50,753 nt of DNA from an uncultured Planctomycetales bacterium (GTDB lineage Bacteria > Omnitrophota > Gorgyraeia > Gygaellales > JAHJCI01): positions 1 through 50,753 of the forward strand of contig CAZQEY010000010.1 in assembly GCA_964592485.1 (NCBI GenBank). Direction: 5' to 3'. The position numbers and the translations under genes are program-made. Shown here in pieces: positions 1 through 49,285 of the stretch (its first letter is position 1; every line of letters starts with the position of its first letter). The notes beneath the pieces were generated by a model, which made no database searches, was not told the DNA's origin, and saw only the letters and a list, made by a program, of their open reading frames with translations.

Positions 1-194
1 CTCGCCGCCTTCGCGTTCTCACCCGTAGGGTATTCCTTTAGATAGGCCTCCCAGGCTTCGATTGTGTTTTGGTTTCTCGCTGCCTGGTAATCCTCTTGTT
101 CGCCAGCTTGGAGCGACGATGAAAGCGCAAGCAATAGCAGGACCGAGAGGACCGCTGTGAGTGCCTTGCCGATGATGCACCTATCTGAATTCAT
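1..194 (-). CDS. Partial CDS (N-terminus only) of a secreted protein with a signal peptide; runs off the window edge
   Basis: ATG at complement 192-194 preceded by a GGAGGTG SD. N-terminus MNSDRCIIGKALTAVLSVLLLLALSSSLQAGE is a signal peptide. Locally higher GC than the neighbouring island. Confidence 0.45.
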   Translation of the reverse strand, partial: MNSDRCIIGKALTAVLSVLLLLALSSSLQAGEQEDYQAARNQNTIEAWEAYLKEYPTGENAKAA

Positions 195-386: not shown

Positions 387-1643
387 CTATCTTAAACAAT
401 ATGGATCCATTCCATTAATTTTTCCTGTTTTAACCCAAGCAACCACCCAGCATCCACCCCAACATCCTTTACCATAATCTTTGCATGAATTACACTCATC
501 GGATTTACCAGCATATTTTACGTTCTTTAAGACTTCACTGTGAAGCCAAATGTCTAATAAACTATTTCCATGTGTTATAGTTCCAGCCAAGAATGTTTTT
601 TCTTTATCAGCTTCCTGGACAAAACCACAAGGATAAACCTCTCCTGTATGGGTAACATGCACCCCCCATAACGGTGCACCACATGAAACAGGTCTATGGA
701 GATCGTAAATTGGAACTTGTCGCCCTTCTTCAAATATATCAAAATTGAATGTAATTGGTACACCTGTTTTTTGCCTTAATCTTGTTGCATGTATAGTATA
801 CTCCCTAAGTTGTTCCTTTGAAGGAACTTCTTCCCAAAACTCTGATGCTTTCCCAATTGGCCTCAGTGGAATAGGTTGAAAACCAGCGGAATATTCTTGA
901 GCAAGACCTACTAAATGTTCGAGCTCTTTTGTATTGCACGAAGACCTGAATATGGTAGTACTTATCCTCGGGTTTAATCCATACTCAGATAGTTTAGCTA
1001 ATGTATCTACTGTTTCCTTATAAGTTTCCTTACCCCTAACAGATTCATGAAATTCAGGTGTTCCCTCTATGCTAATCTTTGTTTGTATAATATTATCATA
1101 ATTTGCTAACTCTTTTAGGAATTGTTCTTTTCTATCGATACAATGCCATACACCATTGGTGGAAAGTATAACTGCTAAACCAAGCTTCTTAGTTTTCTCA
1201 ATTACACCTAAAAGATCATAGCCCCTTATTCCTATCTCGCCACCAGTTAATTGTATTTGAAATGACCCAGCGTCAGCAATTTCTTGAAGTAAAAAATCTT
1301 CTGTTTCTTCTGGAGCAGGTTTAAATTCATCATGGAAATCTCGTGGGCCACAAAATTTACATGCTAAATTACATCTTGGTTCAATACCATAATAAATTCT
1401 TAAAGGTCTATTAAGGCAATTGGCTTCTTCATCAATTATATCAACTTTGGCACCTAAGGCGTTTCCCTTAAAAAATATATTTAATTCATTATACTTTCGA
1501 GATAGGCTTCTTAAGCCAGTTTTATAGTTGGCCTTAACAAAATCAATCTCTTCCCTAGATAGTAAGATTCTTCTCATTCTTCCTTTTTGATCTTGAGTTA
1601 TTAAACCATCAGGGTCTAGTCTGATTCTTTTTAAATTAGTCAT
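387..1643 (-). CDS. Radical SAM enzyme with a C-terminal SPASM domain and a ~85 aa N-terminal extension (possible RRE-like peptide-recognition domain)
   Basis: CNLACKFCG (CxxxCxxC) and a GGE motif. C-terminal Cys cluster C..C...GN..W...CNSCKDYGKGCWGGC is typical of SPASM. A 9 bp gap to the upstream rSAM implies an operon. Confidence 0.85.
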   Translation of the reverse strand: MTNLKRIRLDPDGLITQDQKGRMRRILLSREEIDFVKANYKTGLRSLSRKYNELNIFFKGNALGAKVDIIDEEANCLNRPLRIYYGIEPRCNLACKFCGPRDFHDEFKPAPEETEDFLLQEIADAGSFQIQLTGGEIGIRGYDLLGVIEKTKKLGLAVILSTNGVWHCIDRKEQFLKELANYDNIIQTKISIEGTPEFHESVRGKETYKETVDTLAKLSEYGLNPRISTTIFRSSCNTKELEHLVGLAQEYSAGFQPIPLRPIGKASEFWEEVPSKEQLREYTIHATRLRQKTGVPITFNFDIFEEGRQVPIYDLHRPVSCGAPLWGVHVTHTGEVYPCGFVQEADKEKTFLAGTITHGNSLLDIWLHSEVLKNVKYAGKSDECNSCKDYGKGCWGGCWVVAWVKTGKINGMDPYCLR

Positions 1644-1652
1644 TTCTTAACC

Positions 1653-2723
1653 CTATATAAATTGAAATCTATACCAATCGCTTTTGATAAAATCTATCAC
1701 TGGATTGTATCTTAACATTGGGCAATTTGGAACGCATGTTGCAGGATCAACAGCATCAAAAACCTCCTTATGACGTGGGGAATCCCAATGTCTAAAAAAG
1801 CCACCCTCATGTATATTTCCTAAAGAATGCTGTTTTTTTCTGTGTTCAAAAAAGGCGCAAACATATATTTCTCCATCCCAATCAACCACAGGATGCAAGA
1901 AAGTCATAAGACACTTCTGATATGTCCGCTTCCCTTTATATGTAGGAACAAGTTCAGCAACTAAAGGTTGATCTTTAACAGAATCGATTTGTTCCTGTAT
2001 CTTTTCTGTCAATTGATTGATTTCCTGATTTGGTAATATCAAGTTCATAGGATACCCTAAAAATTTAAATTGAAGGTAATCTGCCCTTAATTCAAGAGCT
2101 TCATTAATTGCTAATAGAGAATCTTCAGCATTTAACTTGGATATCAATGTCTTAAGACCAATTTTAGGTGTCTCATCAGCCATATCTACAAATTCGGAAA
2201 TGGATTGCTTTAAATTCTTATAACTAATCTCTTTTCTTCCATGGACTCTTTTATAAGTTTCATTAGTAAAAGCATCAACTGAGAATCTAATCCAATTACA
2301 ACATTGTATAGCTTTCTCTTTTAGCGTACTTGAATCAGTAAATCTGTAGCCATTTGTGATTAGACCGACACGAAATCCTCTTTGAATGAAATAATCAAAA
2401 ATTTGTTCAATTTGAGGATGCATTAATGGTTCTCCTCCGCCCGACAATTCAATAGCATGAATATTTCTCTGATAAAGTTCATCCAAAAGGTTCTCCAAAG
2501 CAGCTATATCCATATATGTTGAATTATCCCCACGATACTCTCTGGACCTGCAGTGGGGACATTCAAAATTACAAAAATTAGTGGGGAATATCTCAACAAC
2601 TTCAGGATCAGGAATTTCGTTCCTTAAGACCTGTAATACCTTCGGCCATGCTGAAATTAGTTGAATTACTGAACTATCATATTTACGATAAATTCCCTTT
2701 TCATCTTTCTTTTCATTCTTCAT
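1653..2723 (-). CDS. Radical SAM enzyme with a SPASM/twitch-like C-terminal Cys region
   Basis: FPTNFCNFECPHC (CxxxCxxC) and ELSGGGEPLMHP. C-terminal C...YVC...LGNIHEGGFFRHW...CVPNC. Confidence 0.8.
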   Translation of the reverse strand: MKNEKKDEKGIYRKYDSSVIQLISAWPKVLQVLRNEIPDPEVVEIFPTNFCNFECPHCRSREYRGDNSTYMDIAALENLLDELYQRNIHAIELSGGGEPLMHPQIEQIFDYFIQRGFRVGLITNGYRFTDSSTLKEKAIQCCNWIRFSVDAFTNETYKRVHGRKEISYKNLKQSISEFVDMADETPKIGLKTLISKLNAEDSLLAINEALELRADYLQFKFLGYPMNLILPNQEINQLTEKIQEQIDSVKDQPLVAELVPTYKGKRTYQKCLMTFLHPVVDWDGEIYVCAFFEHRKKQHSLGNIHEGGFFRHWDSPRHKEVFDAVDPATCVPNCPMLRYNPVIDFIKSDWYRFQFI

Positions 2724-2850
2724 AGTATCATCTATTGAGTTAAGATTTATAACAAAAAATGGCGTCAGCTTTTATTTCTTATTATGCTTATTTTCTCAAA
2801 ACCAGCCACTGATGGCTGATATCCCTTAATTTTAGGGTACGGTATTGCGT

Positions 2851-2905
2851 ATAACTTAAAATAACTGAATTGCTTCGTAATCCTCCTTCTAAAACAAAAA
2901 AGCAG
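2851..2905. repeat. Copy A of an intergenic repeat (ATAACTTAAAATA...TCCTCCTTCTAAAACAAAAAAGCAG), upstream of rSAM gene 2
   Basis: Near-identical to 3553-3646 but lacks the inner 10 bp inverted repeat and loop. On the minus strand it reads CTGCTTTTTTGTTTTAGAAGGAGGA. Confidence 0.7.
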
Positions 2906-3047
2906 AACCCTCTTTCATTATTATTGAGGAAATTAGCTAACGGGTTTAGGGATTTAAATAGAGATGGTGCTTAACGATGTACATGTTTATGAAGCCCGAA
3001 GGCACGAAGTCAGATACGCTCTGTTATGTGAAGTTGTCCATTCTCTC

Positions 3048-3506
3048 TTAGGTTGAACGACCAACCGAACAAAACGCCTTAACTCTCTTACTGTGAAAAT
3101 AAAAGAAGAATAATACAATTATCAGTGTTTGTACTGCTGTGTGAAACAACATTTCCGGGTTAATCGCCAAGGCTTGTATAGCCGAGGACAATATATTGAT
3201 TACCCATACGACGTGGATGGCTACCCATGCCCAGTACCGTCCATAACGTAGTCCAATGAGAATTGCGATTCCTGCCGTGTTGATCAAAAATGCCAAAATC
3301 GCGGCGGGATTTTGCCCGATTTGACCCAATGACGCTATAGCTAACAGAACCAATATAATGGGACCCAGCAATGTCACTACAGCAAGAAGCGTTGGGCGCA
3401 AACTCGCATTACACTTCGTACAGCGGAAAACACCGGGCTTGTTTGCCTCACCACACTTTGGGCACTTTACAATTATACTGTGCAAATCCACCTTCTCTTG
3501 TACCAT
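3048..3506 (-). CDS. Membrane protein with an N-terminal zinc-ribbon (CPKCG...CTKC) and ~4 TM helices
   Basis: Strong SD AAGGAGGTACAAAA before the ATG. CxxC...CxxC followed by hydrophobic segments. Confidence 0.6.
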   Translation of the reverse strand: MVQEKVDLHSIIVKCPKCGEANKPGVFRCTKCNASLRPTLLAVVTLLGPIILVLLAIASLGQIGQNPAAILAFLINTAGIAILIGLRYGRYWAWVAIHVVWVINILSSAIQALAINPEMLFHTAVQTLIIVLFFFYFHSKRVKAFCSVGRST

Positions 3507-3552
3507 TTTTGTACCTCCTTTCCTCGCTCCTCCAAGAAAAGAGCAATTTCAT

Positions 3553-3646
3553 ATAACTTAAAATATCCGAATTACTTCGTTTATGCCTCTACATTAGCAC
3601 ATTTTCCGAAGTAATTAATAATTCTCCTTCTAAAACAAAAAAGCAG
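3553..3646. repeat. Copy B of the intergenic repeat; contains a 10 bp perfect inverted repeat (AATTACTTCG/CGAAGTAATT, ~27 nt loop)
   Basis: The same 5' (ATAACTTAAAATA) and 3' (TCTCCTTCTAAAACAAAAAAGCAG) blocks as copy A. Lies between the stop of the 122-aa gene and the Zn-ribbon gene. Confidence 0.7.
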
Positions 3647-3654
3647 CCCCCGAC

Positions 3655-4023
3655 TTAGAGCGTTGCTTCTTTCACATTGCTATTTTTGTCTTTCAATAGC
3701 GTTAAAACTCTTAATGTAGTAATTAATACTGTAGTAAATATCAACATAGAACTCCAGAATAAATTTTTTAAATACATAAAGAATAAACCCCAGGAAGAAA
3801 AATAATGTAATAACATTTGGAAACCATTTAATTTTGTTGAGTGTGCTTGCATATATCTTATTGCTTCCCCATAAGGCATAGTTTCTATTTTAGCCCAATC
3901 TTCAGGAGTCATACCTTCTATGCTCGACCCATGGCCGAAAATAATGATAGATAAGATTGAATAAAAGAATGTTATAACTATGCTTATTAGTAGAATATTT
4001 AATAAAACCTTTCTTGGTATCAT
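3655..4023 (-). CDS. Small integral membrane protein (3-4 TM)
   Basis: SD AAAAAGGAGTGAGA before the ATG; hydrophobic composition. Confidence 0.5.
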   Translation of the reverse strand: MIPRKVLLNILLISIVITFFYSILSIIIFGHGSSIEGMTPEDWAKIETMPYGEAIRYMQAHSTKLNGFQMLLHYFSSWGLFFMYLKNLFWSSMLIFTTVLITTLRVLTLLKDKNSNVKEATL

Positions 4024-4076
4024 CTCTCACTCCTTTTTCTTAATTATATCACCGTAATCTCAAAATGGTAAGGAAT

Positions 4077-4175
4077 TTAAGGAAGAGAAGCCACCAACTC
4101 AAACTCAATGCCCTCAGGCGTATTGTGTACACATTGTAAGAGTATTATAGACGAAGGAGGCGATTTAATAGGCAT
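4077..4175 (-). CDS. Candidate 32-aa small ORF (MPIKSPPSSIILLQCVHNTPEGIEFELVASLP); possible small peptide or precursor, speculative
   Basis: AAAGGAGGG SD 7 nt upstream of the ATG. Same orientation as the island operon. The SD can pair with codons 5-7 (CCTCCTT) in a hairpin. Not in the ORF track (<60 aa). Confidence 0.25.
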   Translation of the reverse strand: MPIKSPPSSIILLQCVHNTPEGIEFELVASLP

Positions 4176-4287
4176 AAAAAATCCCTCCTTTCTACTTATG
4201 ATAGACGAGAAAGAAGGGTAAATCTAACTTAAGAAGTTATAGTTTATTTAGTAACAACTGGTTATAATACCACAGGGTGGCACCTTG

Positions 4288-4299
4288 AGGGACGTCCCT
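4288..4299. promoter_or_regulatory. Perfect 12 bp palindrome AGGGACGTCCCT in the leader region between the island genes
   Basis: Seen directly in the sequence. Sits ~110 nt upstream of the small ORF and downstream of the SPFH gene stop. Confidence 0.3.
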
Positions 4300-4340
4300 A
4301 GATTTAGGATTTAGATATAATTATTGTACTGGTCAGGTCG

Positions 4341-5369
4341 CTATCTCTTTATTCTTTCTATCTTAATTATTTCAAGACTAAGAAGATCGATACCAACCGT
4401 AGATAAATGTTGTTTAACTCGGCGTATTATTTCTTTCTTAAACTCATCAGATCGAGAATTTATCATTTCTTCATAAAGATAATTTTTTGCAACTGTCCTC
4501 TTTATAGCATCGGAAATCTGAAAATTCATCTCTGGTTCATAATTCCCATCAAGATCTTTAAATTTTTTATACATTTCCTGCAATCTGTCAACAATTAGTT
4601 GAAATTGAACTCTAACATAAATATTTACAGATTTTCCTTCTTTATCTATGCATCTTATAGGATCAGGGTCGCCCTGTAAAGGATTCATATTATAAGTAAG
4701 TATCTTTCCATTAGAAAATTTAACGTTATAAGGATAAGGTTTAACTTTTGCAGTTTCTTGGTTAACTTTTTGCCAAGCAGATATAACCTCTGGAATTCCT
4801 CCAATAAGATAGCATAAAATAGCCACTATGAATATGGTCATAATGACAATAATACCTGATTTAATCTTAGAAAATTCTGACAACACCCTAATTGCTAAAA
4901 TTAAAATTAATAACTGCCATATAATAAAAGTAATCATTGTATAAAAATAAACAGACTTATTTAATAAATGAGAAATGCCCAATATAAAAATAACAACATA
5001 AGCAAGTATACTAATAAGATAAGTAGAAAAATAGGCAACAAAAATACTTCGTAATGTACACCTATTTGAACTCCTTCTTAGAAAAAACCAAAATAAAAGA
5101 GGAATAAATAATAAGTTACCTACTCCCTGAATAATTATATCGGAATTAGTTTGCGTAAAAACATAAGGTATAAAAACTCTATATTTATGATTTATTAACA
5201 ACGTGAGTATGTAGCTTGCAAAAACACAAAAAACTCCAAATATGAATGGTATCTTATTATTTTTTACCGATTCAAAAAAATGCTTCGGCCTGAAGAATAA
5301 ATTTAATATATTTTCCACTGGCATCAACTCCTTAATAATTCGTGGAGAAGCCTTAATGAGATTAATCAT
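4341..5369 (-). CDS. Polytopic membrane protein (~6 TM) with a C-terminal SPFH/band-7-like domain
   Basis: C-terminal ...AIKRTVAKNYLYEEMINSRSDEFKKEIIRRVKQHLSTVGIDLLSLEIIKIE matches the SPFH consensus pattern. N-terminal two thirds are hydrophobic. Confidence 0.55.
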   Translation of the reverse strand: MINLIKASPRIIKELMPVENILNLFFRPKHFFESVKNNKIPFIFGVFCVFASYILTLLINHKYRVFIPYVFTQTNSDIIIQGVGNLLFIPLLFWFFLRRSSNRCTLRSIFVAYFSTYLISILAYVVIFILGISHLLNKSVYFYTMITFIIWQLLILILAIRVLSEFSKIKSGIIVIMTIFIVAILCYLIGGIPEVISAWQKVNQETAKVKPYPYNVKFSNGKILTYNMNPLQGDPDPIRCIDKEGKSVNIYVRVQFQLIVDRLQEMYKKFKDLDGNYEPEMNFQISDAIKRTVAKNYLYEEMINSRSDEFKKEIIRRVKQHLSTVGIDLLSLEIIKIERIKR

Positions 5370-7415: not shown

Positions 7416-9035
7416 ATGGAAGATAAGGAAATGGAATTGATTAAATTAGCTGAAGATTATTTTGGATTTATGGCTTGCACCTATCCAGTGATGAGCCTGT
7501 CTGACGAATTCTATTTCTTCCCTCGCGCCAAGAAGGCAATTCAATATCTGGAGCGCCTAGACAGTCTGGATGAGGAAAAGATAAAACAGGATATCTCCTA
7601 CATTAAAACCCTTAAGCGAAGTTTAGAAAGATTGAATACAAAACATATGAGTCTAGAAGCGCAGATTGACCAACAGCTTCTTAAGGCGAGTATGGCCGGA
7701 TTCTTGCGAGAGTTTGAACAAATAAAAATCTGGCAAAGCGACCCTATTCTTTATCTTAAAATAACTGCCTTGGGGATAGAACAGATTGTGAACAAATTAT
7801 CGATGATAAAAACAGATATCCGGGAAGAACTCGCTTCCCGAATCAAGCAGATTCCCTCCCTTTTAAAAGAGGCAAGACAAAACTTAAAGAAAATCCCTCT
7901 TCTTTATCAAGAGACAGCAATTCAGATGGCTAAAGCAGGAACGGAGTATCTTGGAGGCTACTTCCCTTTATTTTTAAAAGCGAAATCCCTGGATACAAAA
8001 GGACTTAGAGTTTTGGCCAAAAGGGCTATTCAATCATTAGAAGATTTTAAAAAATTCTTAAAGCTAAAGCACGGCCATGATAAATTTATCAAGGATAGGA
8101 GTATCCTTGAAGATATAATCATCAACAGCTTCTCTTATAAGCGCGGGCTCTCGGAAATATTTGAAATCGCCTCGGATGAATACCAAAGAATAATAATCAA
8201 ATTAAAAAAGGTAGCCAAGCCTATCTCTCCTTCTAAAAGTTGGCAGGATATCCTATTGGGTTATAAATTAAAAGCACAAAATACACGGGAATTGCTAAAA
8301 ATCTATTCTGCGCAGATTATTAATCTAAAAGATTTTCTTGTAAAGAGTCAGCTCATCAGTATTCCAAGGATGCAGAATATCAAGGTCCTGCAGACCCCTG
8401 TTTATTTAGCGCCGATTAGGGCCTCAGCCTCCTACGCCTGCCCCTTGACCAGAAATCAGAAAGAATCAGCATTTTTTTATGTGAGCATTGATAGGGCTGG
8501 GGAGAATATCCATCAGGAATATATCTTTGTTACTGCCCATGAGACCTATCCCGGGCATCATTTACTTGATTCATTCAGGCGCAATATTAAAAGTCCCATC
8601 CGCCAACAGATTGAATCACCGCTCTTTTATGAAGGCTGGGCCTCCTATGCGGAAAGGTTAGTTGATGAATTTGGGTATCTAAATGAACCGGAGCAAAAGC
8701 TGGTTGGCTTAAGGAGACAGGCCTGGAGAGCAATAAGGGCAAAACTGGACGTGGGTATAAGGATAAATAAAATAAAAATCTCTGAGGCAGCAAGAGAATT
8801 ACGCCGACTGGGTTATGACTCATCCAGAGTCAAGGCAATGCTTAAACATTATGTGCTTACCTATGGGTATCAGTTATGTTATACTATTGGCAAATTTGAG
8901 ATTGAAAGATTAAAGAAAGAATTTGCTCCCCAAATGGGGATAAAAAATTTCCATAACTTCCTGCTTACCGGGGGGCAACTTCCCTTTGATTTAATTAAAA
9001 AGAGGATGGAGAAATTATGCCGGAAGAATTCTTAG
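7416..9035 (+). CDS. Putative zinc metallopeptidase, DUF885-like (HExxxxHH motif). The true start may be the ATG at 7431, which is SD-preceded.
   Basis: The HETYPGHH motif matches my recollection of the DUF885 HE[ST]xPGHH signature. No search was done. Confidence 0.5.
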   Translation: MEDKEMELIKLAEDYFGFMACTYPVMSLSDEFYFFPRAKKAIQYLERLDSLDEEKIKQDISYIKTLKRSLERLNTKHMSLEAQIDQQLLKASMAGFLREFEQIKIWQSDPILYLKITALGIEQIVNKLSMIKTDIREELASRIKQIPSLLKEARQNLKKIPLLYQETAIQMAKAGTEYLGGYFPLFLKAKSLDTKGLRVLAKRAIQSLEDFKKFLKLKHGHDKFIKDRSILEDIIINSFSYKRGLSEIFEIASDEYQRIIIKLKKVAKPISPSKSWQDILLGYKLKAQNTRELLKIYSAQIINLKDFLVKSQLISIPRMQNIKVLQTPVYLAPIRASASYACPLTRNQKESAFFYVSIDRAGENIHQEYIFVTAHETYPGHHLLDSFRRNIKSPIRQQIESPLFYEGWASYAERLVDEFGYLNEPEQKLVGLRRQAWRAIRAKLDVGIRINKIKISEAARELRRLGYDSSRVKAMLKHYVLTYGYQLCYTIGKFEIERLKKEFAPQMGIKNFHNFLLTGGQLPFDLIKKRMEKLCRKNS

Positions 9036-10396
9036 GATATCATTCGGAATGGAATATGGGTAGTCCCGGCGGGTGGGATTATCAAAGGATGGCGCAAGAA
9101 ATAGCCAGATTCTCCTGGGGCAAGATTAAAGAGCAATCTGGTATTGATATAGATTTAGATATTGACCATCCGATTCTTAATCCTCTGCCTGCATTCGCTG
9201 ATATGCTCCTTGAAGCACATAAGAGGGATTTCGGCAGGCAGAAGCCGTTTATTGCCCTGGTGGCTGAGGAAGAAACCCTCAAGAAGGTAGGCGAGAATAT
9301 CCACTTTATCCAATATCTAAATAACCTGCCTAATGTCTCTGCCTGTCTGGTCAGCCCGGACAAACTGGAGTTAAAAAATAAACGGGTTTTTGTGGGCAGA
9401 AACAGAATCACCTTAATCTTTCTGGATTTCAACAACAATGTGATTGTAAAATTAAAAAAGAAATACAATCTTCGCCCGCTCATTGAGGCAATAAAACAAG
9501 GAGCAGTCGTAAATCCGCGAGGAATGGAACCGGTTGGCGCAAAGGGGATATTTGAGGCAATAACCTCAGAATATAGAAACCTAATCAGCCAAACCACGCT
9601 TAAGAGAACTCCCTGGACAAGGCAGTTCTTCTCCCGCACAACCACCGGCCCGGAAGAAGAAAAAATCCCTGATTTAATTAAATGGGTAAAGGAAAACTGG
9701 GATAGAATTATCCTAAAACCAGTACATGGCTATTCCGGCAAAGGGATTATCATCGGCCATAAAGAACCTGATAGTGATAAATGCATACAACAGGCATTAA
9801 AAAGCGGCGATTATATCATCCAGCCCCTTATTCCGATGAACCTCTGGGCCGAAGAGTTTCCCTGGATTGATAAAGAAAATAAAAAGATATTCCTGAAATC
9901 CTGGCAAACTGACTTTCGCTGCTTCATTACTCCCCGAGGCCTGATTGGCTTTGTCACCCGATTTGGCGGCATACCTACCAATGTTGGCTCAGGCGGAGGA
10001 GTACAGAGCACAGCAATCTTACACTCTAAGATTTCGGTCAATGAGGCAATTGAAAGAATTAACGAAGCCATATTGAATTTGGGATTTGATTTTATTGCCC
10101 AACTCCAAGCAGAGATTGATAAAAAGTCTATCCGGATGGGAAATGTATATCTATTAGGCCCGATTATGTCCACGCTAAGGCCGAGGATAATTACCCCTAA
10201 GCATATCTTAGAGTTACAAACTTATGCCAAAAATCTCTGGGATGATGCAAGGAAATTAGAGAGGCTGTGGCAGGAGGGAAAGTTGACAAGATATGTTCAA
10301 ATAAGCAAAGAGGAAGAGGAAATTGCCCGCCTTGCTCCCTGGCAAGGAAATCCTGCCTTAATTGCCTCCGATGGTCTTTTCGGTTTCGAGAAATAA
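9017..10396 (+). CDS. ATP-grasp family ligase (nucleotide-binding ILKPVHGYSGKGIIIG mid-protein; possibly the circularly-permuted type)
   Basis: ATP-grasp K-P...G-S-G-K-G motif. Overlaps the upstream gene by 19 nt, implying an operon. Confidence 0.55.
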   Translation: MPEEFLGYHSEWNMGSPGGWDYQRMAQEIARFSWGKIKEQSGIDIDLDIDHPILNPLPAFADMLLEAHKRDFGRQKPFIALVAEEETLKKVGENIHFIQYLNNLPNVSACLVSPDKLELKNKRVFVGRNRITLIFLDFNNNVIVKLKKKYNLRPLIEAIKQGAVVNPRGMEPVGAKGIFEAITSEYRNLISQTTLKRTPWTRQFFSRTTTGPEEEKIPDLIKWVKENWDRIILKPVHGYSGKGIIIGHKEPDSDKCIQQALKSGDYIIQPLIPMNLWAEEFPWIDKENKKIFLKSWQTDFRCFITPRGLIGFVTRFGGIPTNVGSGGGVQSTAILHSKISVNEAIERINEAILNLGFDFIAQLQAEIDKKSIRMGNVYLLGPIMSTLRPRIITPKHILELQTYAKNLWDDARKLERLWQEGKLTRYVQISKEEEEIARLAPWQGNPALIASDGLFGFEK

Positions 10397-10436
10397 GGTA
10401 ACAGCAGGTAAAAGGGACCTCCCCATTTAGTATTCC

Positions 10437-11210
10437 ATGATTAGGGTAAAAAAGAACTGGTGGAAAGACTTTTTCAATAATATTTATTTAATTACTGATG
10501 CCCGCAGCGTAGGCGATGTTCATCTTACCTGCCGCGAGGTTGATTTATTAGAGAAGGTTTTGCGCTTGGATAAAACTGACCGCATCCTTGATTTATTTGG
10601 CGGGCAGGGGAGGCACTCAATAGAGCTGGCAAAACGCGGCTATCGAGATTTAACCGTGCTTGATTATTCTGATTATTTGATTAATTTAGGAAGGTGCTCA
10701 GCTAAAAAAGAGAATCTCAAGATAAATTTTTATCAGGGCGATGCACGTTCTACTAAACTTGCAAATAGTAATTATTCTGTTATTATCATAATGGCTAATT
10801 CCTTCGGTTATTTCACCAATGAAAGAGAAAATGAAAAAGTATTAAGAGAAGCACACCGGTTACTTAAAACCGGAGGCAGGTTGCTTCTGGATTTGATAAA
10901 TTCTGAACATGTTAAAAATACCCTCAAGCCCACTTCCTGGCATAGAATTGACAATGATATTGATGTGTTTCGAAAAAGAGAAATTAAAAATAACCTGGTT
11001 AAAACCAAGGAGACTGTAATCTCTCAGCGGAAGGGACTGATTAGGGATGGTAGTTATTGCGAGCGCATTTACACCAAAGCAAGAATCTGCCGATTACTTA
11101 AGAAGGTGGGTTTTAAAAATATTAACATAAAAAATAATCTTTCCCTCCATAAAGAAAATCAAGATTATGGTTTGCTTACCTCAAGGATGATTGTTACCGC
11201 AAATAAATGA
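10437..11210 (+). CDS. Class I SAM-dependent methyltransferase
   Basis: Motif I LDLFGGQGRHS; post-I D; motif LLKTGGRLLLD. Confidence 0.8.
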   Translation: MIRVKKNWWKDFFNNIYLITDARSVGDVHLTCREVDLLEKVLRLDKTDRILDLFGGQGRHSIELAKRGYRDLTVLDYSDYLINLGRCSAKKENLKINFYQGDARSTKLANSNYSVIIIMANSFGYFTNERENEKVLREAHRLLKTGGRLLLDLINSEHVKNTLKPTSWHRIDNDIDVFRKREIKNNLVKTKETVISQRKGLIRDGSYCERIYTKARICRLLKKVGFKNINIKNNLSLHKENQDYGLLTSRMIVTANK

Positions 11211-13213: not shown

Positions 13214-14656
13214 TTATTTACCTATACAAAATTCACTGAAGATTCTATCCAACAGTCCATCGGAAAAACGCCCACCCAAAATCTCATCTAAAAAACCAAT
13301 TGCCTCTTGGAGGTCCTGGGCGATGAACTCAAAAGGTAAATTCGCATTAGCTGATTTTCTCGCCCGCATAATTGATTTCTTTACCTTTCTAAGTTGCTGA
13401 ATATGCCTTAGATTAGTCACCCATACCGGAGTGTCTGATTTAATTTTACCACTAAATACAAATTGGGCAATTGCTTCTTCCAGCAGGTCGATATTTTTTT
13501 GTTTTTTTGCCGAGACCTGAACAACCTGCGGGAAGCGTTGAGCAATTTTATCGTACTCGATATTCTGCTTCAGGTCTATCTTGTTAATTAAAGCGATAGT
13601 CGGTTTGGAGTTAATCTTGCGCATTAAGACCCTATCTTCATACGATAAATCCCTGCTGCCGTCAAAAACAAGTAAGACCAAATTCGCCTCTCGGATATAG
13701 CGCTGGCTGCGGGAAACTGCCTTTTGTTCGATTAAATCGCCTGGTTCGATTATTCCGGCAGTATCAACAATCCTTATCGGAATGCCCCTAATATCTAAAA
13801 TGTCCTCAATTGTATCGCGGGTGGTCCCCGCAATCGGAGTAACGATTGAACGTTCACATTTTAATAATGCATTTAAAAGCGAGGATTTTCCGACATTGGG
13901 CCTGCCGCAAATAACCACCTTTATGCCTTCACGAAAAACCCTGCCCCTTTTTGAATTCTCCAAGAGAAATTCTAATTGATGATTTATTCGGTCTATACTT
14001 ATAGTGATATTCTTGATATCCACTGCTTCCAAGCCCTCATCGGGAAAATCAATATTTGCCTCCAAGATGGTAAGTAGTTCTAATAATTTATCTCTTAACT
14101 GATTCAACCTTTTTGAGAAATCCCCCTTCAATTGCTCAACGCTTGCCCTTAAGGCAGTATCCGTTTTTGCCCTAATAATATCTAATACTGCCTCAGCCTG
14201 GGTAAGGTCAATCCGACCATTTAAAAAGGCGCGCTTAGTAAATTCTCCCGGATTACTCAAGCGGGCGCCTAAACTTAAAACTAATTCCAGAGTTTTTCTT
14301 AAAGGGATAATCCCCCCGTGACAGTTAATCTCCACAATATCTTCGCGTGTATAACTTTTAGGCCTACGCATCACTGTCAGTATAACCTCATCAACAATAT
14401 CTGATTTTTGTCCGCCTTCATTTAATTTCGGCGAACAACCCGCCGAAGTCTTGACGAAGGCGGGTTGATTTTTCACAATCCATCCGTAATGAGTCGTATA
14501 GGTTTTAAAATTGGAAGGCTTTTGACCATCCTTGGAAACAAAGATCTTATCCGCAATAGTTATTGCCTTACTCCCGCTAATTCTCACAATACCAATGCCT
14601 GACTCACCAACCGGAGTGGAAATTGCCGCAATCGTATCATTTAGATTAAAATTCAT
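13214..14656 (-). CDS. mnmE: tRNA modification GTPase MnmE (TrmE) carrying a ~20 aa in-frame insertion
   Basis: GRPNVGKSSLLNAL, DTAG and C-terminal CIGK. The insertion PAFVKTSAGCSPKLNEGGQKS is encoded by a palindromic element. Confidence 0.95.
   Translation of the reverse strand: MNFNLNDTIAAISTPVGESGIGIVRISGSKAITIADKIFVSKDGQKPSNFKTYTTHYGWIVKNQPAFVKTSAGCSPKLNEGGQKSDIVDEVILTVMRRPKSYTREDIVEINCHGGIIPLRKTLELVLSLGARLSNPGEFTKRAFLNGRIDLTQAEAVLDIIRAKTDTALRASVEQLKGDFSKRLNQLRDKLLELLTILEANIDFPDEGLEAVDIKNITISIDRINHQLEFLLENSKRGRVFREGIKVVICGRPNVGKSSLLNALLKCERSIVTPIAGTTRDTIEDILDIRGIPIRIVDTAGIIEPGDLIEQKAVSRSQRYIREANLVLLVFDGSRDLSYEDRVLMRKINSKPTIALINKIDLKQNIEYDKIAQRFPQVVQVSAKKQKNIDLLEEAIAQFVFSGKIKSDTPVWVTNLRHIQQLRKVKKSIMRARKSANANLPFEFIAQDLQEAIGFLDEILGGRFSDGLLDRIFSEFCIGK
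14412..14464. repeat. GC-rich nested palindromic element inserted in-frame in mnmE
   Basis: Outer arms CCGCCTTC/GAAGGCGG. Inner hairpin TTCGGCG-aacaacc-CGCCGAA. No counterpart in E. coli MnmE. Confidence 0.7.
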
Positions 14657-16120: not shown

Positions 16121-16160
16121 ATTCGTTATTGCGTTCTTGCGTCCTTCGATAAACTCAGGA

Positions 16161-16192
16161 CGCAATCCTGAACTTGTTGAAGGATTGCGTTA
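16161..16192 (-). promoter_or_regulatory. 10 bp perfect inverted repeat hairpin between purH and folC (ACGCAATCCT...AGGATTGCGT), followed by a direct repeat AACGCTATAAC x2
   Basis: Seen in the sequence. No U-run follows, so it is not a classical terminator. Confidence 0.4.
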
Positions 16193-16228
16193 TTGCGTCA
16201 AACGCTATAACCCAATAACGCTATAACG

Positions 16229-31044: not shown

Positions 31045-32161
31045 TACAGGCTCCTTCGCTAGAAACCATGCAGGGACCATAAGGATTTGCAGGGGAACAA
31101 ATCTTGCGAAATAAGGAGCACTCGGGAGGCTGAATTATTCCCTTCAGCACTTCCTTGCAGCGGCATTTCTCAAGTTTTTTGTTTGGTATTTCATATTTTC
31201 CCGTCTTTACATTTCTTGCTATAGCGGGATTCCGCTTGAAACGGGAAATATTAGGAAACACTATTCTTTTGGTCTCGAAACTTGAGAATGCATCCTTTAA
31301 CTCCAATCCACTTTGAGGAATTTCACCGAGTCCCCGCCAGGTAGCATTATCAGTCTTAAAAACCTTGAATATTTCTGCCTTTGCCTTTAGATTTCCCTCC
31401 TTTTTTACCACCCGTATATACTGATTTTCCACGCACGGTTTGTTCTGAATAACTTGACGAAGCAGGAAATAAATCCCCTCCAAGATATCCAAGGGTTCAA
31501 ATCCAGCCACACAGCAGGCAATCTTGTATTTTTTAGGAATAAACTCATATGCCTGGCTGCCGATGATTGTTGAGACATGTCCGGGACAGAGAAATCCGTC
31601 AATCTTAACTTGTCGGTCAAAAACCAATGCCTCCATTGCTGGAGGGATAAGTTTTAAGGCAGAAAAAAAAGAGAGATTGTTTAATCTTTCTTTTTTAGCT
31701 GCCTGCAGCGTAAGAGCTAAGGTCGAGGCAGTAGTCTCAAAGCCTACCGCCAGAAAGATTATCAACTTTTTTGGATTTTTTCTTGCTATACTCAGACTAT
31801 CCCAAGCAGAATAAACAACACGGACATCGCTACCCTCGGCCCTTTTCCTCTCAAGACTCGTGTTTGTCCCTGGTACCCGTAACATATCTCCAAAACTTAA
31901 GATGATTATATCCTTAAACTCGCTTAATTGGATTGCTTTATCAATATAATCCTGGTCAGACACACAAACCGGACACCCGGGCCCGGCAATCAAGTGTAGA
32001 TTCTTGGGAATTAACCTGTCTAAGCCAAAGCGGTGAAAACACTGAGTATGGGTACCGCAAACCTCCATCAGACGAATTGTGGTCTTCGGTATAATCTCAA
32101 ATATTTTCTGAGAAATCCGCTTGATAAGCTCTTTGTTGCGGAACTCATCAATAAATTTCAT
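31022..32161 (-). CDS. hypD: Hydrogenase maturation protein HypD
   Basis: MKFIDEFR N-terminus, MEVCGTHT, GPGCPVCV. Start placed at the ATG; the ORF track uses a TTG. Confidence 0.9.
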   Translation of the reverse strand: MKFIDEFRNKELIKRISQKIFEIIPKTTIRLMEVCGTHTQCFHRFGLDRLIPKNLHLIAGPGCPVCVSDQDYIDKAIQLSEFKDIIILSFGDMLRVPGTNTSLERKRAEGSDVRVVYSAWDSLSIARKNPKKLIIFLAVGFETTASTLALTLQAAKKERLNNLSFFSALKLIPPAMEALVFDRQVKIDGFLCPGHVSTIIGSQAYEFIPKKYKIACCVAGFEPLDILEGIYFLLRQVIQNKPCVENQYIRVVKKEGNLKAKAEIFKVFKTDNATWRGLGEIPQSGLELKDAFSSFETKRIVFPNISRFKRNPAIARNVKTGKYEIPNKKLEKCRCKEVLKGIIQPPECSLFRKICSPANPYGPCMVSSEGACNAYYKYK

Positions 32162-32366
32162 CTTCCCCTTCAAGCAATTGCAATGTCTGACGAGCAGCCT
32201 CCGGATTAACTATCTCTATGGCAAAACCTGCATGAACAATAACATAATCGCCCGGCTTTACCAAAGGCACCATTTGAACATTTACCTGACGCCTTAGCCC
32301 GCCGGTCTTAACCCAGGCAAATTGACCTTCTATCCTAGTAACCCTCATCGGTATTCCTAAACACAC
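32148..32366 (-). CDS. hypC: Hydrogenase maturation chaperone HypC, GTG start giving (M)CLGIPMRV
   Basis: Obligatory Met-Cys N-terminus found only with a GTG start, which is preceded by GGAAG. 72 aa. Overlaps hypD. Confidence 0.75.
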   Translation of the reverse strand: MCLGIPMRVTRIEGQFAWVKTGGLRRQVNVQMVPLVKPGDYVIVHAGFAIEIVNPEAARQTLQLLEGEDEIY

Positions 32367-32381
32367 CTGATATCTTCCTTC

Positions 32382-32522
32382 TTCAATTCGCCCGCCAAAG
32401 TTCTGTGGCGGGCGAATTGAACCCCGCACCTTTTTCCTACGAAGCAACTCTGCACAGTAGAAAGGTGCGGGGTTAATTCCGACTTACAACTTATGTCCTT
32501 TGAATAAACTCAGGACATAAGT
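32382..32522 (-). promoter_or_regulatory. Three consecutive strong hairpins in the hypC leader: a 15 bp TTCAATTCGCCCGCC hairpin, a 14 bp AACCCCGCACCTTT hairpin and an 11 bp ACTTATGTCCT hairpin
   Basis: Perfect inverted repeats at 32382-32421, 32420-32474 and 32489-32522. Confidence 0.7.
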
Positions 32523-32603
32523 TGTGTCGTCATTAAAATTCTATCATATCTGTCTTAAATTATCCAGAAAAGATTGCTTTTGCTTTGCTTGGCTTGAATC
32601 TGG

Positions 32604-38844: not shown

Positions 38845-38914
38845 ATTATTGTTATGTCCGTTTGGTCTGTTATGTCTGTTTAGTCCGTTAACAGAGCTAA
38901 CGGAATTAACGGAC
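38845..38914 (-). promoter_or_regulatory. Intercistronic hairpin/repeat region between the alpha and beta subunit genes (GTCCGTTAA...TTAACGGAC; repeated YTAACGG motifs)
   Basis: 9 bp inverted repeat abutting the alpha-subunit stop. Direct repeats TTATGTCCGTTT/TTATGTCTGTTT. Confidence 0.5.
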
Positions 38915-39997
38915 CTAACGGGCTAAATGATTTATCTTACTTATTATCTCTTGTTCCGACGGTATTCCTCCGCCAGCACGGCCAAAGAATTCCACTGGAG
39001 CTTTTCCTCCCACAGCTAACTTTACATCTTCAAGCATCTGACCATAAGACATCTCAGTCACTACATAACGGATTTTTTTTGAGGGATTATGATCAAATGC
39101 CTTCTGAGGGAACGGCCAGAGGCTGATTGGTTGAATAAGCCCGATTCTCATATTCTGTTTTCTCAATCTGTTTACCACATTTTGGGCAATTCTTGCCATC
39201 GTTCCATAAGCAACCAAGACAATCCGGGCATCATCCAGAAATAAACTCCTCCAGCGCTGCTGCTGACTTTGCATCTTTTGATATTTCTTCTGCAAACCCT
39301 TATTAGCCTCTTCCAGTGCCCCCTCGGGTAAATAGAGCGACTTTATAACATTGGGCTTGCGATTCCTGCAGCCAGTCAACGCCCATTTCTTAATTGAGAG
39401 TTCACGGTCGACGGTTGACGGATTTTTTCTGTGAACTGTGGAGTGTGAACTGTGAACTAAAAGGGGTTCCATCATCTGTCCAAGCATCCCATCACCTAGA
39501 ACGATCACTGGATTCCTGTATTGCCAAGCCAGCTTGAATGCCAATAGCATCAAATCAAATGCCTCCTGAACCGAAGAAGGAGCAAGAACAATACAGCGAT
39601 AATCTCCATGCCCTCCGCCTTTGGTTGCCTGAAAATAATCTGATTGCGATGGAGCGATATTGCCCAGGCCTGGACCGCCGCGCATAATATTAACAATTAC
39701 GGCAGGAAGCTCGCATCCAGCTAGATAAGAAATCCCCTCCTGCTTGAGGCTGATTCCCGGGCTGGAAGAAGAGGTCATTGCCAGCGCGCCGGCAGCGGCG
39801 GCGCCAAAAACCATATTTATTGCGGCTAATTCTGATTCTGCCTGAATAAAGATACGATTCTCCTCAATCATTCTTTTTGCCATATAAGCAGTGAGTTCAT
39901 TCTGAGGAGTAATTGGATATCCAGCATAGAAGGCGCAATCTGCCTGAATCGCTCCTTCACCAATTGCCTCATTACCCGTCATTAATATTTTTTTCAT
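38915..39997 (-). CDS. 2-oxoacid:ferredoxin oxidoreductase alpha subunit, with a repeat-encoded in-frame insertion
   Basis: Alpha-subunit N-terminus MTGNEAIGEGAIQA. Insertion HSSHSTVHRKNPSTVDR is encoded by TGTGAACT repeats at 39398-39459. Confidence 0.9.
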   Translation of the reverse strand: MKKILMTGNEAIGEGAIQADCAFYAGYPITPQNELTAYMAKRMIEENRIFIQAESELAAINMVFGAAAAGALAMTSSSSPGISLKQEGISYLAGCELPAVIVNIMRGGPGLGNIAPSQSDYFQATKGGGHGDYRCIVLAPSSVQEAFDLMLLAFKLAWQYRNPVIVLGDGMLGQMMEPLLVHSSHSTVHRKNPSTVDRELSIKKWALTGCRNRKPNVIKSLYLPEGALEEANKGLQKKYQKMQSQQQRWRSLFLDDARIVLVAYGTMARIAQNVVNRLRKQNMRIGLIQPISLWPFPQKAFDHNPSKKIRYVVTEMSYGQMLEDVKLAVGGKAPVEFFGRAGGGIPSEQEIISKINHLAR

Positions 39998-48885: not shown

Positions 48886-49057
48886 TTTATCAAAACCTCC
48901 TTTCCTTATTATAAACTGAGATTGAATTTTAAGCAAGCCCCGTTAGGAATTTTTATTTGACGTATTAGCAAGCAGTATTTCTAACGGGAGTCTAGTTATA
49001 ACTTTTTATTAACCTTTGGAATTCAGTTGAAACAATAAAGAGGAGATCTTTGTCCAA

Positions 49058-49285
49058 GCTTTAGCCTCAGCTAAAGTCAGGTATTGTTTCGGGCTGAACT
49101 TCGATTGAGACTAAACTTTGATCAAAGGCTTTGCTCAAACTCCAGCCTCAGCTAAAGCGCTGCTTTAAGCTTAAACTTCAGTCAAGACTAAACTTTGATC
49201 AAAGGCTTTGCTCAAACTTTAACCTCAGCTAAAGTAAAATATTGTTTTAGGCTGAACTTTGGTTGAGGCTAAACTTTGATCAAAG
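49058..49285. repeat. About 3 tandem copies of a 68-83 bp unit, each containing palindromes CTTTAGCCTCAGCTAAAG and CTTTGATCAAAG, in the long rny leader
   Basis: CTTTGATCAAAG at 49116, 49193 and 49274. CCTCAGCTAAAG occurs three times. Confidence 0.8.

What the first reader, a model, noticed from the sequence alone, without database searches (positions are those of the whole stretch)
4077..4175. Unannotated 32-codon ORF with a near-consensus SD inside the island; its SD can be sequestered by its own codons 5-7
AAAGGAGGG lies 7 nt upstream of ATG CCT ATT AAA TCG CCT CCT TCG..., giving MPIKSPPSSIILLQCVHNTPEGIEFELVASLP. The SD (GAAGGAGG) is complementary to CCUCCUUC inside the ORF, making a 7-8 bp hairpin with a ~23 nt loop. 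This could gate translation. The peptide has a single Cys and a Glu/Phe-rich C-terminus. It is the only strongly SD-preceded small ORF I found in the island, so it is the best candidate substrate or leader peptide. It could equally be a structured RNA.
Basis: seen in the sequence. Interest (0 to 1): 0.5.

Follow-up and report, generated by a model that had tools for sequence, protein, structure and literature searches.

The report
Orphan small ORF with locked ribosome site
A 32-codon reading frame with a textbook ribosome-binding site really exists between two membrane-protein genes, and that site is predicted to be locked in RNA hairpins from both sides. It has no relative anywhere, and nothing ties it to the nearby radical-SAM enzymes, so it is at best an untested, lineage-specific small gene or leader.

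Summary
On the minus strand, GAAAGGAGGG lies 7 nt before an ATG (4175) that opens a 32-codon ORF. The SD pairs with codons 5-7 in a 17-bp hairpin of -18 kcal/mol.

I also found a second, upstream anti-SD, CCCUUCUUUCU (4218-4208), which forms a hairpin of -15.3 kcal/mol. Of 366 GGAG sites in the window, only this one has such strong complements on both flanks. Its start region is the most structured of 38 gene starts.

The reading as an rSAM substrate or leader peptide is not supported:
- The two rSAM/SPASM genes form a conserved two-gene cassette found in many unrelated contexts.
- Relatives at 84% and 76% identity lack this ORF and lack any shared small ORF.
- The ORF lies 1.35 kb upstream of the rSAMs, behind two other genes.
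- The peptide is a singleton among 1.84 billion representative proteins and was absent from the metagenome, viral, plasmid and phage searches.

Codon usage is uninformative.

Best guess, at about 0.4: a real but translationally locked, lineage-specific small ORF or leader. A non-coding structure or chance remain serious rivals. Interest is low.

The parts
4077..4175 (-). 32-codon ORF (ATG 4175-4173, TAA 4079-4077), product MPIKSPPSSIILLQCVHNTPEGIEFELVASLP
   Evidence: Called as protein P0117 on the NCBI copy but not called on the Logan copy L001. Singleton in 1.84e9 representatives.
4183..4193 (-). Shine-Dalgarno tract AGAAAGGAGGG, 7 nt before the ATG. The same GAAAGGAGG form precedes the 152-aa gene and the RNase Y gene.
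4208..4218 (-). Upstream anti-SD (aSD1) CCCUUCUUUCU. It pairs with the SD tract in 11 bp with one G-U; hairpin dG -15.3.
   Evidence: z -2.8; upstream duplex -15.9, the best of 366 GGAG sites
4147..4195 (-). Main SD-sequestering hairpin: 17 bp, AUG in the loop, dG -18. It contains the downstream anti-SD (aSD2) CCUCCUU at 4160-4154, which is codons 5-7 (Ser-Pro-Pro).
   Evidence: z -3.2 to -4.2; top 2% of windows; most structured of 38 start regions
4043..4071 (-). Promoter-like site TTACCA-17-TGaTATAAT, starting 5 nt after the ORF's stop codon and ahead of the 122-aa gene. If it is used, the downstream gene does not need the ORF's transcript.
   Evidence: 10/12 matches plus TG; such matches are not enriched over shuffles: 5 found, 6.3 expected
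3655..4023 (-). Downstream 122-aa membrane protein gene (SD AAGGAG), 54 nt after the ORF's stop. It is a near-orphan.
   Evidence: one homologue, 58% identity; that homologue has no such ORF upstream
4341..5369 (-). Upstream Yip1/Band_7 (SPFH) membrane protein gene. No terminator-like site was found between it and the ORF.
   Evidence: one homologue, 38% identity, with different DNA downstream

Best explanation
A lineage-specific small ORF or leader that is really set up for translation, but whose ribosome-binding site is kept shut by two mutually exclusive anti-SD hairpins.

During transcription the pyrimidine tract aSD1 (4218-4208) would pair with the SD first. Once codons 5-7 are made, the more stable SD:aSD2 hairpin (4195-4147) takes over. 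Either way the SD is masked and the AUG sits in a loop. Translation would therefore need an opening event, such as a trans-acting RNA or protein, processing, or rare breathing.

It sits between the Yip1/Band_7 gene and the 122-aa and 152-aa membrane-protein genes. It belongs, if to anything, to that little gene group and not to the radical-SAM cassette.

Shown: the sequence features, the predicted energies, their rarity within this window, and the absence of any link to the rSAM family. Inferred: that the ORF is transcribed and translated, and the order of folding. The peptide's function is unknown.
For: - The SD is a 9-nt match to the form used by clear genes of this genome (GAAAGGAGG before the 152-aa gene and RNase Y), with ideal 7-8 nt spacing to an ATG.
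- Four of the other five AGGAGG+ATG sites in the window are plausible real gene starts.
- It lies in a 317-nt intergenic gap, on the same strand as all its neighbours.
- One gene caller predicted it.
- The SD is flanked by strong complements on both sides. It is unique among 366 GGAG sites, with duplex energies of -15.9 and -12.3 kcal/mol.
- The hairpin z-scores are -2.8 to -4.2.
- The combination of a perfect SD, an ATG, an open frame and a double lock is hard to get by accident. It is the architecture described for tightly repressed small genes (PMC6733600).
Against: - There is no homologue of the peptide or the DNA anywhere, so no purifying selection can be shown.
- Codon usage does not discriminate. 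The log-likelihood of 4.8 sits at the 20th percentile of real in-frame windows and the 76th percentile of stop-free off-frame windows.
- The start region is more structured than that of any real gene here. The SD is predicted paired at all temperatures, which is equally what a non-translated structure would look like.
- A second gene caller skipped it.
- No promoter-like site was found upstream of it.
- An SD+ATG+32-codon ORF has a 0.39 chance of appearing somewhere in a 50-kb window.
Confidence: 0.4

Rival explanations
1. A non-coding structured element with an incidental ORF. The purine tract and its two pyrimidine complements form alternative hairpins. They lie in the 3' UTR of the Yip1/Band_7 gene or the 5' leader of the 122-aa gene. 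The element could be an RNA stability or processing element, or an SD-like 5' stabiliser of the STAB-SD kind (GAAAGGAGG in the cryIIIA leader; from my own knowledge, not checked here). The 32 codons would then be an accident.
For: - The SD is predicted never to be accessible.
- The structure is the statistically unusual part, not the ORF.
- The peptide has no recognisable features or family.
- There is no terminator-like site after the upstream gene, so the region is probably its 3' UTR or an operon spacer.
Against: - Rfam gives nothing, even at E<=10.
- The hairpin is not followed by a U-run on either strand, so it is not a canonical terminator.
- An ATG at ideal spacing followed by 32 open codons in 34%-GC DNA is a roughly 1-3% coincidence given the purine tract (my estimate from base composition; compare).
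Confidence: 0.3
2. Pure chance: neither the ORF nor the hairpins do anything.
For: - There is a 0.39 probability of at least one such SD+ATG+ORF per window.
- AAGGAGG is not enriched in the window (11 found, 9.7 expected).
- There is no conservation data at all.
- The upstream anti-SD was found post hoc.
Against: - The expected number of GGAG sites with both flanks this complementary is about 0.03 per window.
- The position is intergenic and on the coding strand.
- The SD is identical to the genome's preferred form.
Confidence: 0.17
3. A RiPP precursor, or leader peptide, modified by the two rSAM/SPASM enzymes.
For: - It is on the same strand, 1.35 kb upstream of two rSAM/SPASM genes that resemble peptide maturases only generically (MftC-, WgkB- and AlbA-like hits far below cut-off).
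- It is about 30 aa long, with one Cys.
Against: - The rSAM pair travels alone. Its neighbours differ in every locus examined (DUF4238, HEPN/NTase, integrase/FRG and others).
- The ORF is absent from loci with 84% and 76% identical rSAMs.
- No shared small ORF flanks the pair in any locus.
- Two genes with their own SDs, a terminator-like site and a repeated terminator/SD-like module intervene.
- No RRE/PqqD domain was detected.
- There is a single Cys and no known core motif.
Confidence: 0.05
4. A type I toxin gene whose mRNA is kept untranslatable by SD/anti-SD hairpins.
For: The architecture matches that described for aapA3 and other type I toxins: an SD trapped by an upstream and a downstream anti-SD, the latter inside the ORF (PMC6733600). 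The ORF size of about 30 aa also fits.
Against: - The peptide is not hydrophobic. The maximum 19-residue Kyte-Doolittle mean is 0.8, against 2.8-2.9 for the neighbouring membrane proteins, and the net charge is -2.
- No promoter-like site for an antisense RNA was found on the plus strand.
- It is a single copy with no family.
Confidence: 0.03

Closest known systems
SD/anti-SD hairpins of type I toxin mRNAs (H. pylori aapA3/IsoA3; hok/Sok)
   Same: A small ORF of about 30 codons whose SD is trapped in local hairpins by partly or fully complementary anti-SD sequences. One lies upstream and one is embedded in the first codons of the ORF, and the two are mutually exclusive (PMC6733600; here).
   Different: The peptide is not a hydrophobic helix. 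No antisense promoter or RNA is evident. There is no 5'-3' long-distance interaction, and no family or repeats of the locus.
Translational attenuation leaders (ermC/ermK-type leader peptides; own knowledge)
   Same: A short leader ORF lies upstream of a regulated gene, with alternative pairings of three or four RNA segments that include SD sequences. A Pro-Pro pair (codons 6-7) could pause ribosomes on the anti-SD.
   Different: Here the masked SD is the leader's own. Pairing of the ORF's 3' end (4088-4079) with the SD of the 122-aa gene exists but is not unusual: -10.3 kcal/mol, and 17% of GGAG sites do as well. A promoter-like site lies between the ORF and the downstream gene.
RNA thermometers (ROSE, fourU; own knowledge)
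   Same: The SD is occluded by pairing with a pyrimidine-rich strand in a hairpin.
   Different: The structure is far too stable and redundant. The SD core is predicted >98% paired up to 75 C. One anti-SD lies in the coding region.
Precursor peptides of rSAM/SPASM RiPP maturases (MftA, PqqA, SCIFF, sactipeptide and ranthipeptide precursors)
   Same: A small ORF of about 30 aa on the same strand as two rSAM/SPASM genes.
   Different: It is not adjacent to the rSAMs and is not co-conserved with them. It has one Cys only and no C-terminal GVY, E-x3-Y or Cys-rich motif. No RRE was found. The rSAMs score far below the cut-off of every named maturase family.

Membership tests
rSAM/SPASM RiPP precursor peptide | Encoded next to (usually directly upstream of) its maturase, in one operon | tested here: not met
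   1354 nt and two genes lie between the ORF's stop (4077) and the first rSAM start (2723). There is a terminator-like site at 3661-3646 and a repeated terminator/SD-like module in between.
rSAM/SPASM RiPP precursor peptide | Co-occurs with the maturase in homologous clusters | tested here: not met
   No tblastn or blastn match in loci L010-L015, whose rSAMs are 84% and 76% identical. No small ORF outside the rSAM genes is shared between representative loci (L010, L013, L016, L017, L019, L020, L021).
rSAM/SPASM RiPP precursor peptide | The maturase carries, or is accompanied by, a peptide-recognition (RRE/PqqD-like) domain | tested here: inconclusive
   Pfam finds only Radical_SAM, SPASM and Fer4_12. 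The 418-aa enzyme has about 75 unassigned N-terminal residues, and divergent RREs can escape Pfam.
rSAM/SPASM RiPP precursor peptide | Recognisable core motif (Cys-rich, C-terminal GVY, E-x3-Y, etc.) | tested here: not met
   The sequence has a single Cys and none of these motifs. There are no NCBIfam or Pfam hits.
Type I toxin-antitoxin toxin | SD sequestered by anti-SD sequence(s) in the toxin mRNA | tested here: met
   Two anti-SDs with hairpins of -15.3 and -18 kcal/mol. This is a prediction only.
Type I toxin-antitoxin toxin | Small hydrophobic, membrane-inserting peptide | tested here: not met
   The maximum 19-residue hydropathy is 0.8, GRAVY is 0.43 and net charge is -2.
Type I toxin-antitoxin toxin | Overlapping or adjacent antisense RNA gene with its own promoter | tested here: inconclusive
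   No sigma-70-like site on the plus strand within 4000-4300. A consensus scan cannot exclude one.
Leader ORF / translational or transcriptional attenuator of the downstream gene | Same transcript as the regulated gene, with a terminator or a masked downstream SD that leader translation relieves | tested here: inconclusive
   There is no terminator between the ORF and the 122-aa gene, and a promoter-like site lies between them. The ORF's 3' end can pair with the 122-aa SD, but no better than background.
Known structured RNA family (Rfam) | Match to a covariance model | tested here: not met
   Only two tRNAs reach gathering score in the window. Nothing credible appears at E<=10 in 2600-4500.
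Conserved small protein | Homologues with the frame preserved (dN/dS < 1) | not testable with these tools
   No homologous sequence exists in any collection searched. The only other copy, L001, is 100% identical.

The most novel reading that the evidence does not exclude
The ORF is a translated leader whose double-locked SD acts as a switch for the adjacent membrane-protein genes. aSD1:SD and SD:aSD2 are alternative states. A ribosome pausing on the Pro-Pro codons, which are the anti-SD itself, keeps its own SD open. A ribosome terminating over the CU-rich 3' end (4090-4079) unmasks the SD of the 122-aa gene. That would be a self-contained translational relay in front of a Yip1/SPFH-associated membrane module. 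The pairing with the 122-aa SD is not statistically unusual, so this rests on geometry only.
Probability: 0.08. Interest if true: 0.45.

Novelty: new member of a known kind. Interest (0 to 1): 0.2.

Why it matters
If real, it would be one more small gene or leader controlled by SD sequestration, in an uncultured bacterium. The double anti-SD layout is tidy and is otherwise described mainly for type I toxins. Its practical value here is negative. It should not be taken as the substrate of the two radical-SAM/SPASM enzymes. Their family moves as a bare two-gene cassette with no conserved peptide partner, so their substrate remains open.

Tried and rejected
1. Conservation of the ORF.
- The 122-aa neighbour has only one homologue, and its locus L002 has a 71-nt gap and no such ORF.
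- The 342-aa neighbour has only one homologue, and its locus L022 has unrelated DNA downstream.
- The genome-contig scan with the rSAM found only distant generic rSAMs.
- Degenerate-codon DNA patterns found nothing in metagenome contigs or viral contigs.
- blastn and tblastn against phages and plasmids found nothing.
- The exact-product contig look-up found no record.

2. HMMER against 1.84e9 representatives. The apparent hits P0123 (E 2.5e-17) and P0125 are translated tandem repeats that accumulate score over many copies. They are not homologues.

3. Family libraries (Pfam, NCBIfam, PHROGs, PADLOC) gave nothing for the ORF or for the antisense and alternative-frame ORFs.

4. Codon-usage log-likelihood is uninformative.

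5. Terminator reading of the hairpin is rejected, because there is no U-run on either strand.

6. Thermometer reading is rejected, because the SD stays paired to 75 C.

7. The repeat family shared by the other two intergenic regions (D1/D2) does not include this region.

8. Coupling of the ORF's 3' end to the 122-aa SD: the pairing exists but is not unusual.

9. Pseudogene or N-terminal-extension reading is rejected. The ends of both flanking proteins match those of their homologues.

10. My first sliding-window fold timed out and was repeated with a coarser step.

Full report
**What is there**

The finding lies on the minus strand. Reading 4200->4070 gives ...cataagtaGAAAGGAGGGattttttATGcctattaaatcgCCTCCTTcgtctataat... 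The ATG at 4175 opens a 32-codon frame that ends at TAA 4079-4077. The product is MPIKSPPSSIILLQCVHNTPEGIEFELVASLP.

The layout on that strand, in order, is as follows:
- a 342-aa Yip1/Band_7 membrane protein (5369-4341)
- a 165-nt spacer
- the small ORF
- 54 nt that contain a promoter-like site (TTACCA-17-TGaTATAAT, 4071-4043)
- a 122-aa membrane protein (4023-3655)
- a 152-aa zinc-ribbon membrane protein (3506-3048)
- a 324-nt gap
- two radical-SAM/SPASM genes (2723-1653 and 1643-387)

The host is a bacterium: MnmE, FolC, PurH, EF-G, Dxs, RNase Y and bacterial GltX are all present.

**Checking the observation**

The SD, spacing, start codon and peptide are as stated. Two details need correction.
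- The SD reads GAAAGGAGG. The string GAAGGAGG is the plus-strand complement of the anti-SD, so the contiguous core is 7 bp.
- The hairpin is much larger than 7-8 bp with a 23-nt loop. RNAfold pairs GUAGA-AAGGAGG-GAUUU (4195-4179) with AAAUC-g-CCUCCUU-cg-UCUAU (4166-4147). That is 17 bp, with the AUG in the apical loop and dG -18.0 kcal/mol. The z-score is -3.2 (71 nt) to -4.2 (61 nt) against dinucleotide shuffles.

The hairpin persists in the MFE and centroid structures of 86-, 146- and 317-nt contexts. It ranks in the top 2% of all 71-nt windows of the contig after G+C correction.

**A second lock**

Upstream of the SD there is a pyrimidine tract, CCCUUCUUUCU (4218-4208). It is complementary to AGAAAGGAGGG (4193-4183) in 11 bp with one G-U. 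On its own it gives a hairpin of -15.3 kcal/mol, z -2.8. The SD therefore has an anti-SD on each side, and the two pairings exclude each other.

I compared every GGAG-containing 11-mer of the window (366 sites, both strands) for its best duplex with the 40 nt upstream and the 40 nt downstream.
- This site is the only one with both flanks this strong (-15.9 and -12.3 kcal/mol).
- It is the best of all 366 on the upstream side.
- Among 25,318 sampled 11-mers of any composition, 8e-5 reach both values.

In a partition-function fold of 4245-4100, the SD core is unpaired with probability 0.001 at 37 C and 0.013 at 75 C. This is a lock, not a thermometer.

Against 37 clear gene starts of the window, folded from -30 to +40, this start is the most structured. 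Its dG is -18.0 against -8.3 +/- 3.4, and its SD-to-AUG accessibility is 0.26 against 0.54 +/- 0.16.

**Is the ORF more than chance?**

By itself, barely.
- In first-order Markov simulations, AGGAGG + 4-10 nt + ATG + >=32 codons occurs 0.5 times per 50-kb window (P>=1 = 0.39) and 0.036 times per 7.2 kb of island-like sequence.
- AAGGAGG is not enriched in the window (11 found, 9.7 expected).

In its favour:
- The window has six AGGAGG+ATG sites. Three are starts of long genes (RNase Y, PurH and the 152-aa gene). One opens a signal-peptide ORF that runs off the contig end. One is an internal false positive.
- GAAAGGAGG is the exact form used before RNase Y and the 152-aa gene.

Codon usage cannot decide. 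The log-likelihood is 4.8. Real in-frame 31-codon windows score 7.5 +/- 3.5, windows of the island genes 4.9 +/- 4.0, and stop-free off-frame windows 2.0 +/- 3.9.

Gene callers disagree. The exact product is in the protein collection as P0117 from the NCBI copy of this contig. The calls on the identical Logan contig L001 skip it.

**Conservation: the requested test cannot be run**

The peptide is a singleton.
- HMMER against 1.84 billion representatives returns only itself plus translated tandem-repeat artefacts.
- Degenerate-codon DNA patterns for HNTPEGIEFE and for SD+MPIKSPP find nothing in the metagenome contigs or the viral contigs.
- blastn and tblastn against phage and plasmid records find nothing.
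- Rfam finds nothing credible.
- Pfam, NCBIfam, PHROGs and PADLOC find nothing.

The neighbours are near-orphans as well.
- The 122-aa protein has one homologue (58% identity). Its locus has a 71-nt upstream gap with an ordinary terminator-like hairpin and no such ORF.
- The 342-aa protein has one homologue (38% identity), with unrelated DNA downstream.

Absence of conservation here means absence of data. It is not evidence of a decayed frame.

**Link to the radical-SAM enzymes**

The 356-aa rSAM has 114 relatives at E<=1e-20. Among the few relatives that carry a source name, labels include Nanoarchaeota, Woesearchaeota, Patescibacteria, Bacillota and Chitinophagales. In every locus retrieved it is followed directly by a homologue of the second rSAM. 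Everything else differs between loci:
- L010-L012 (84% identity): DUF4238 upstream, with a 62-nt gap
- L013-L015 (76% identity): HEAT-repeat and unknown genes
- L016-L018: HEPN/nucleotidyltransferase pairs
- L020 and L021: an FRG-domain gene, an integrase and DUF3854

None of these loci has a tblastn or blastn match to the ORF or its region.

An all-against-all comparison of every 12-120-codon ORF across the loci finds matches only inside the rSAM genes themselves. The family therefore has no conserved flanking peptide at all.

In the window, the ORF is 1.35 kb from the first rSAM. It sits behind two genes with their own strong SDs, a terminator-like site (3661-3646) and a repeated terminator/SD-like module. 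Neither rSAM reaches the cut-off of any named maturase family, and no RRE/PqqD domain is detected. The peptide has one Cys and no known core motif.

**Most likely mechanism**

Three things need explaining together: a perfect, genome-typical SD; a correctly spaced ATG with an open frame; and a statistically unusual double anti-SD. I think the most economical reading is a real but tightly repressed small ORF or leader (confidence 0.4).
- aSD1 masks the SD as it emerges.
- The more stable SD:aSD2 hairpin replaces it once codons 5-7 are transcribed.
- Initiation needs something to open the structure.

This is the architecture described for type I toxin mRNAs. There, anti-SD sequences a few nucleotides upstream or downstream trap the SD in a hairpin, and aapA3 carries one inside the ORF at codon 9 (PMC6733600). 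Membership of that family fails, though. The peptide is not hydrophobic: its maximum 19-residue hydropathy is 0.8, against 2.8-2.9 for the neighbouring membrane proteins. No antisense promoter is seen either.

**Rivals**

- A non-coding structure with an incidental ORF (0.3). This could be a 3'-UTR or 5'-leader stability or processing element, possibly an SD-like stabiliser. The stabiliser idea comes from my own knowledge and was not tested.
- Pure chance (0.17).
- An rSAM substrate (0.05).
- A type I toxin (0.03).

I also looked at whether the CU-rich 3' end of the ORF (4088-4079) masks the SD of the 122-aa gene, which would give translational coupling. The pairing exists (10 bp, -10.3 kcal/mol). 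However, 17% of GGAG sites do as well, so I give it no weight.

**Verdict**

The gating idea is plausible in silico. The substrate or leader idea for the rSAMs is not supported. This is an orphan candidate small gene of a known regulatory style, with no way to test selection at present. Interest is low (0.2).

Noticed in passing
window 387-2723 (-); loci L010-L021: The two rSAM/SPASM genes form a conserved, self-contained two-gene cassette with about 114 relatives; the few that carry a source name include DPANN archaea, Patescibacteria and Bacillota. It sits in unrelated, often mobile or defence-like neighbourhoods (HEPN/NTase pairs, integrase, DUF3854, FRG, DUF4238). No conserved peptide partner was found. 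PADLOC gives only generic pVip-level rSAM similarity. Its substrate is unknown.
   Followed up: partly
window 3546-3651 and 2844-2910: The intergenic region after the 122-aa gene is partly duplicated after the 152-aa gene, at 82-86% identity. The copy has a 39-nt deletion. The repeat includes the T-run, the string TTTTAGAAGGAG(G/A)A and ACGAAGyAATTCrGwTATTTTAAGTTATAyG. It looks like a repeated terminator/SD-like (perhaps promoter) module. The copy before the rSAM has an SD-like AGAAGGAGGA with no start codon behind it.
   Followed up: partly
window 1-194 (-): A gene with a strong SD (GTCAGGAGGTG, 7 nt, ATG at 194) starts here and runs off the contig end. Its first 64 residues look like a signal or lipoprotein-type N-terminus (MNSDRCIIGKALTAVLSVLLLLALSSSLQAGEQ...). 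G+C rises again here, so the low-GC island probably ends between 200 and 390.
   Followed up: no
window 4289-4298: A perfect 10-bp palindrome, GGGACGTCCC (it contains GACGTC), lies in the spacer between the Yip1/Band_7 gene and the small ORF. It is followed by GGTGCCACCCTGTGG, which can form a small hairpin.
   Followed up: no
window 38861-38931, 39381-39471, 32363-32553, 31641-31711, 16121-16211, 14401-14473, 49103-49173: These are the strongest local hairpins of the contig after G+C correction (-24 to -35 kcal/mol per 71 nt). All are far stronger than the one in the finding. Several lie at gene ends and may be terminators. The cluster at 32.4-32.55 kb sits upstream of the hypF-like gene.
   Followed up: no
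window 7416-11210 (+): This is the only plus-strand gene block of the contig: DUF885 (539 aa), a 459-aa protein with faint ATP-grasp similarity, and a SAM-dependent methyltransferase. It abuts the low-GC region.
   Followed up: no
window, all gene starts: SD usage looks weak. About half of the longest-ORF starts have no >=4-nt SD match. However, 37 of 40 genes are on one strand. Some longest-ORF starts are clearly too long; RNase Y, for example, more likely starts at 48885 behind GAAAGGAGG than at the TTG at 48936.
   Followed up: partly
L022 1738-1893: Downstream of the only homologue of the Yip1/Band_7 protein lies a 51-codon ORF (MPGQARIVMPNIAHHITQRGNYRQ...). From memory it resembles the N-terminus of REP-associated/IS200-like tyrosine transposases. 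This was not tested.
   Followed up: no
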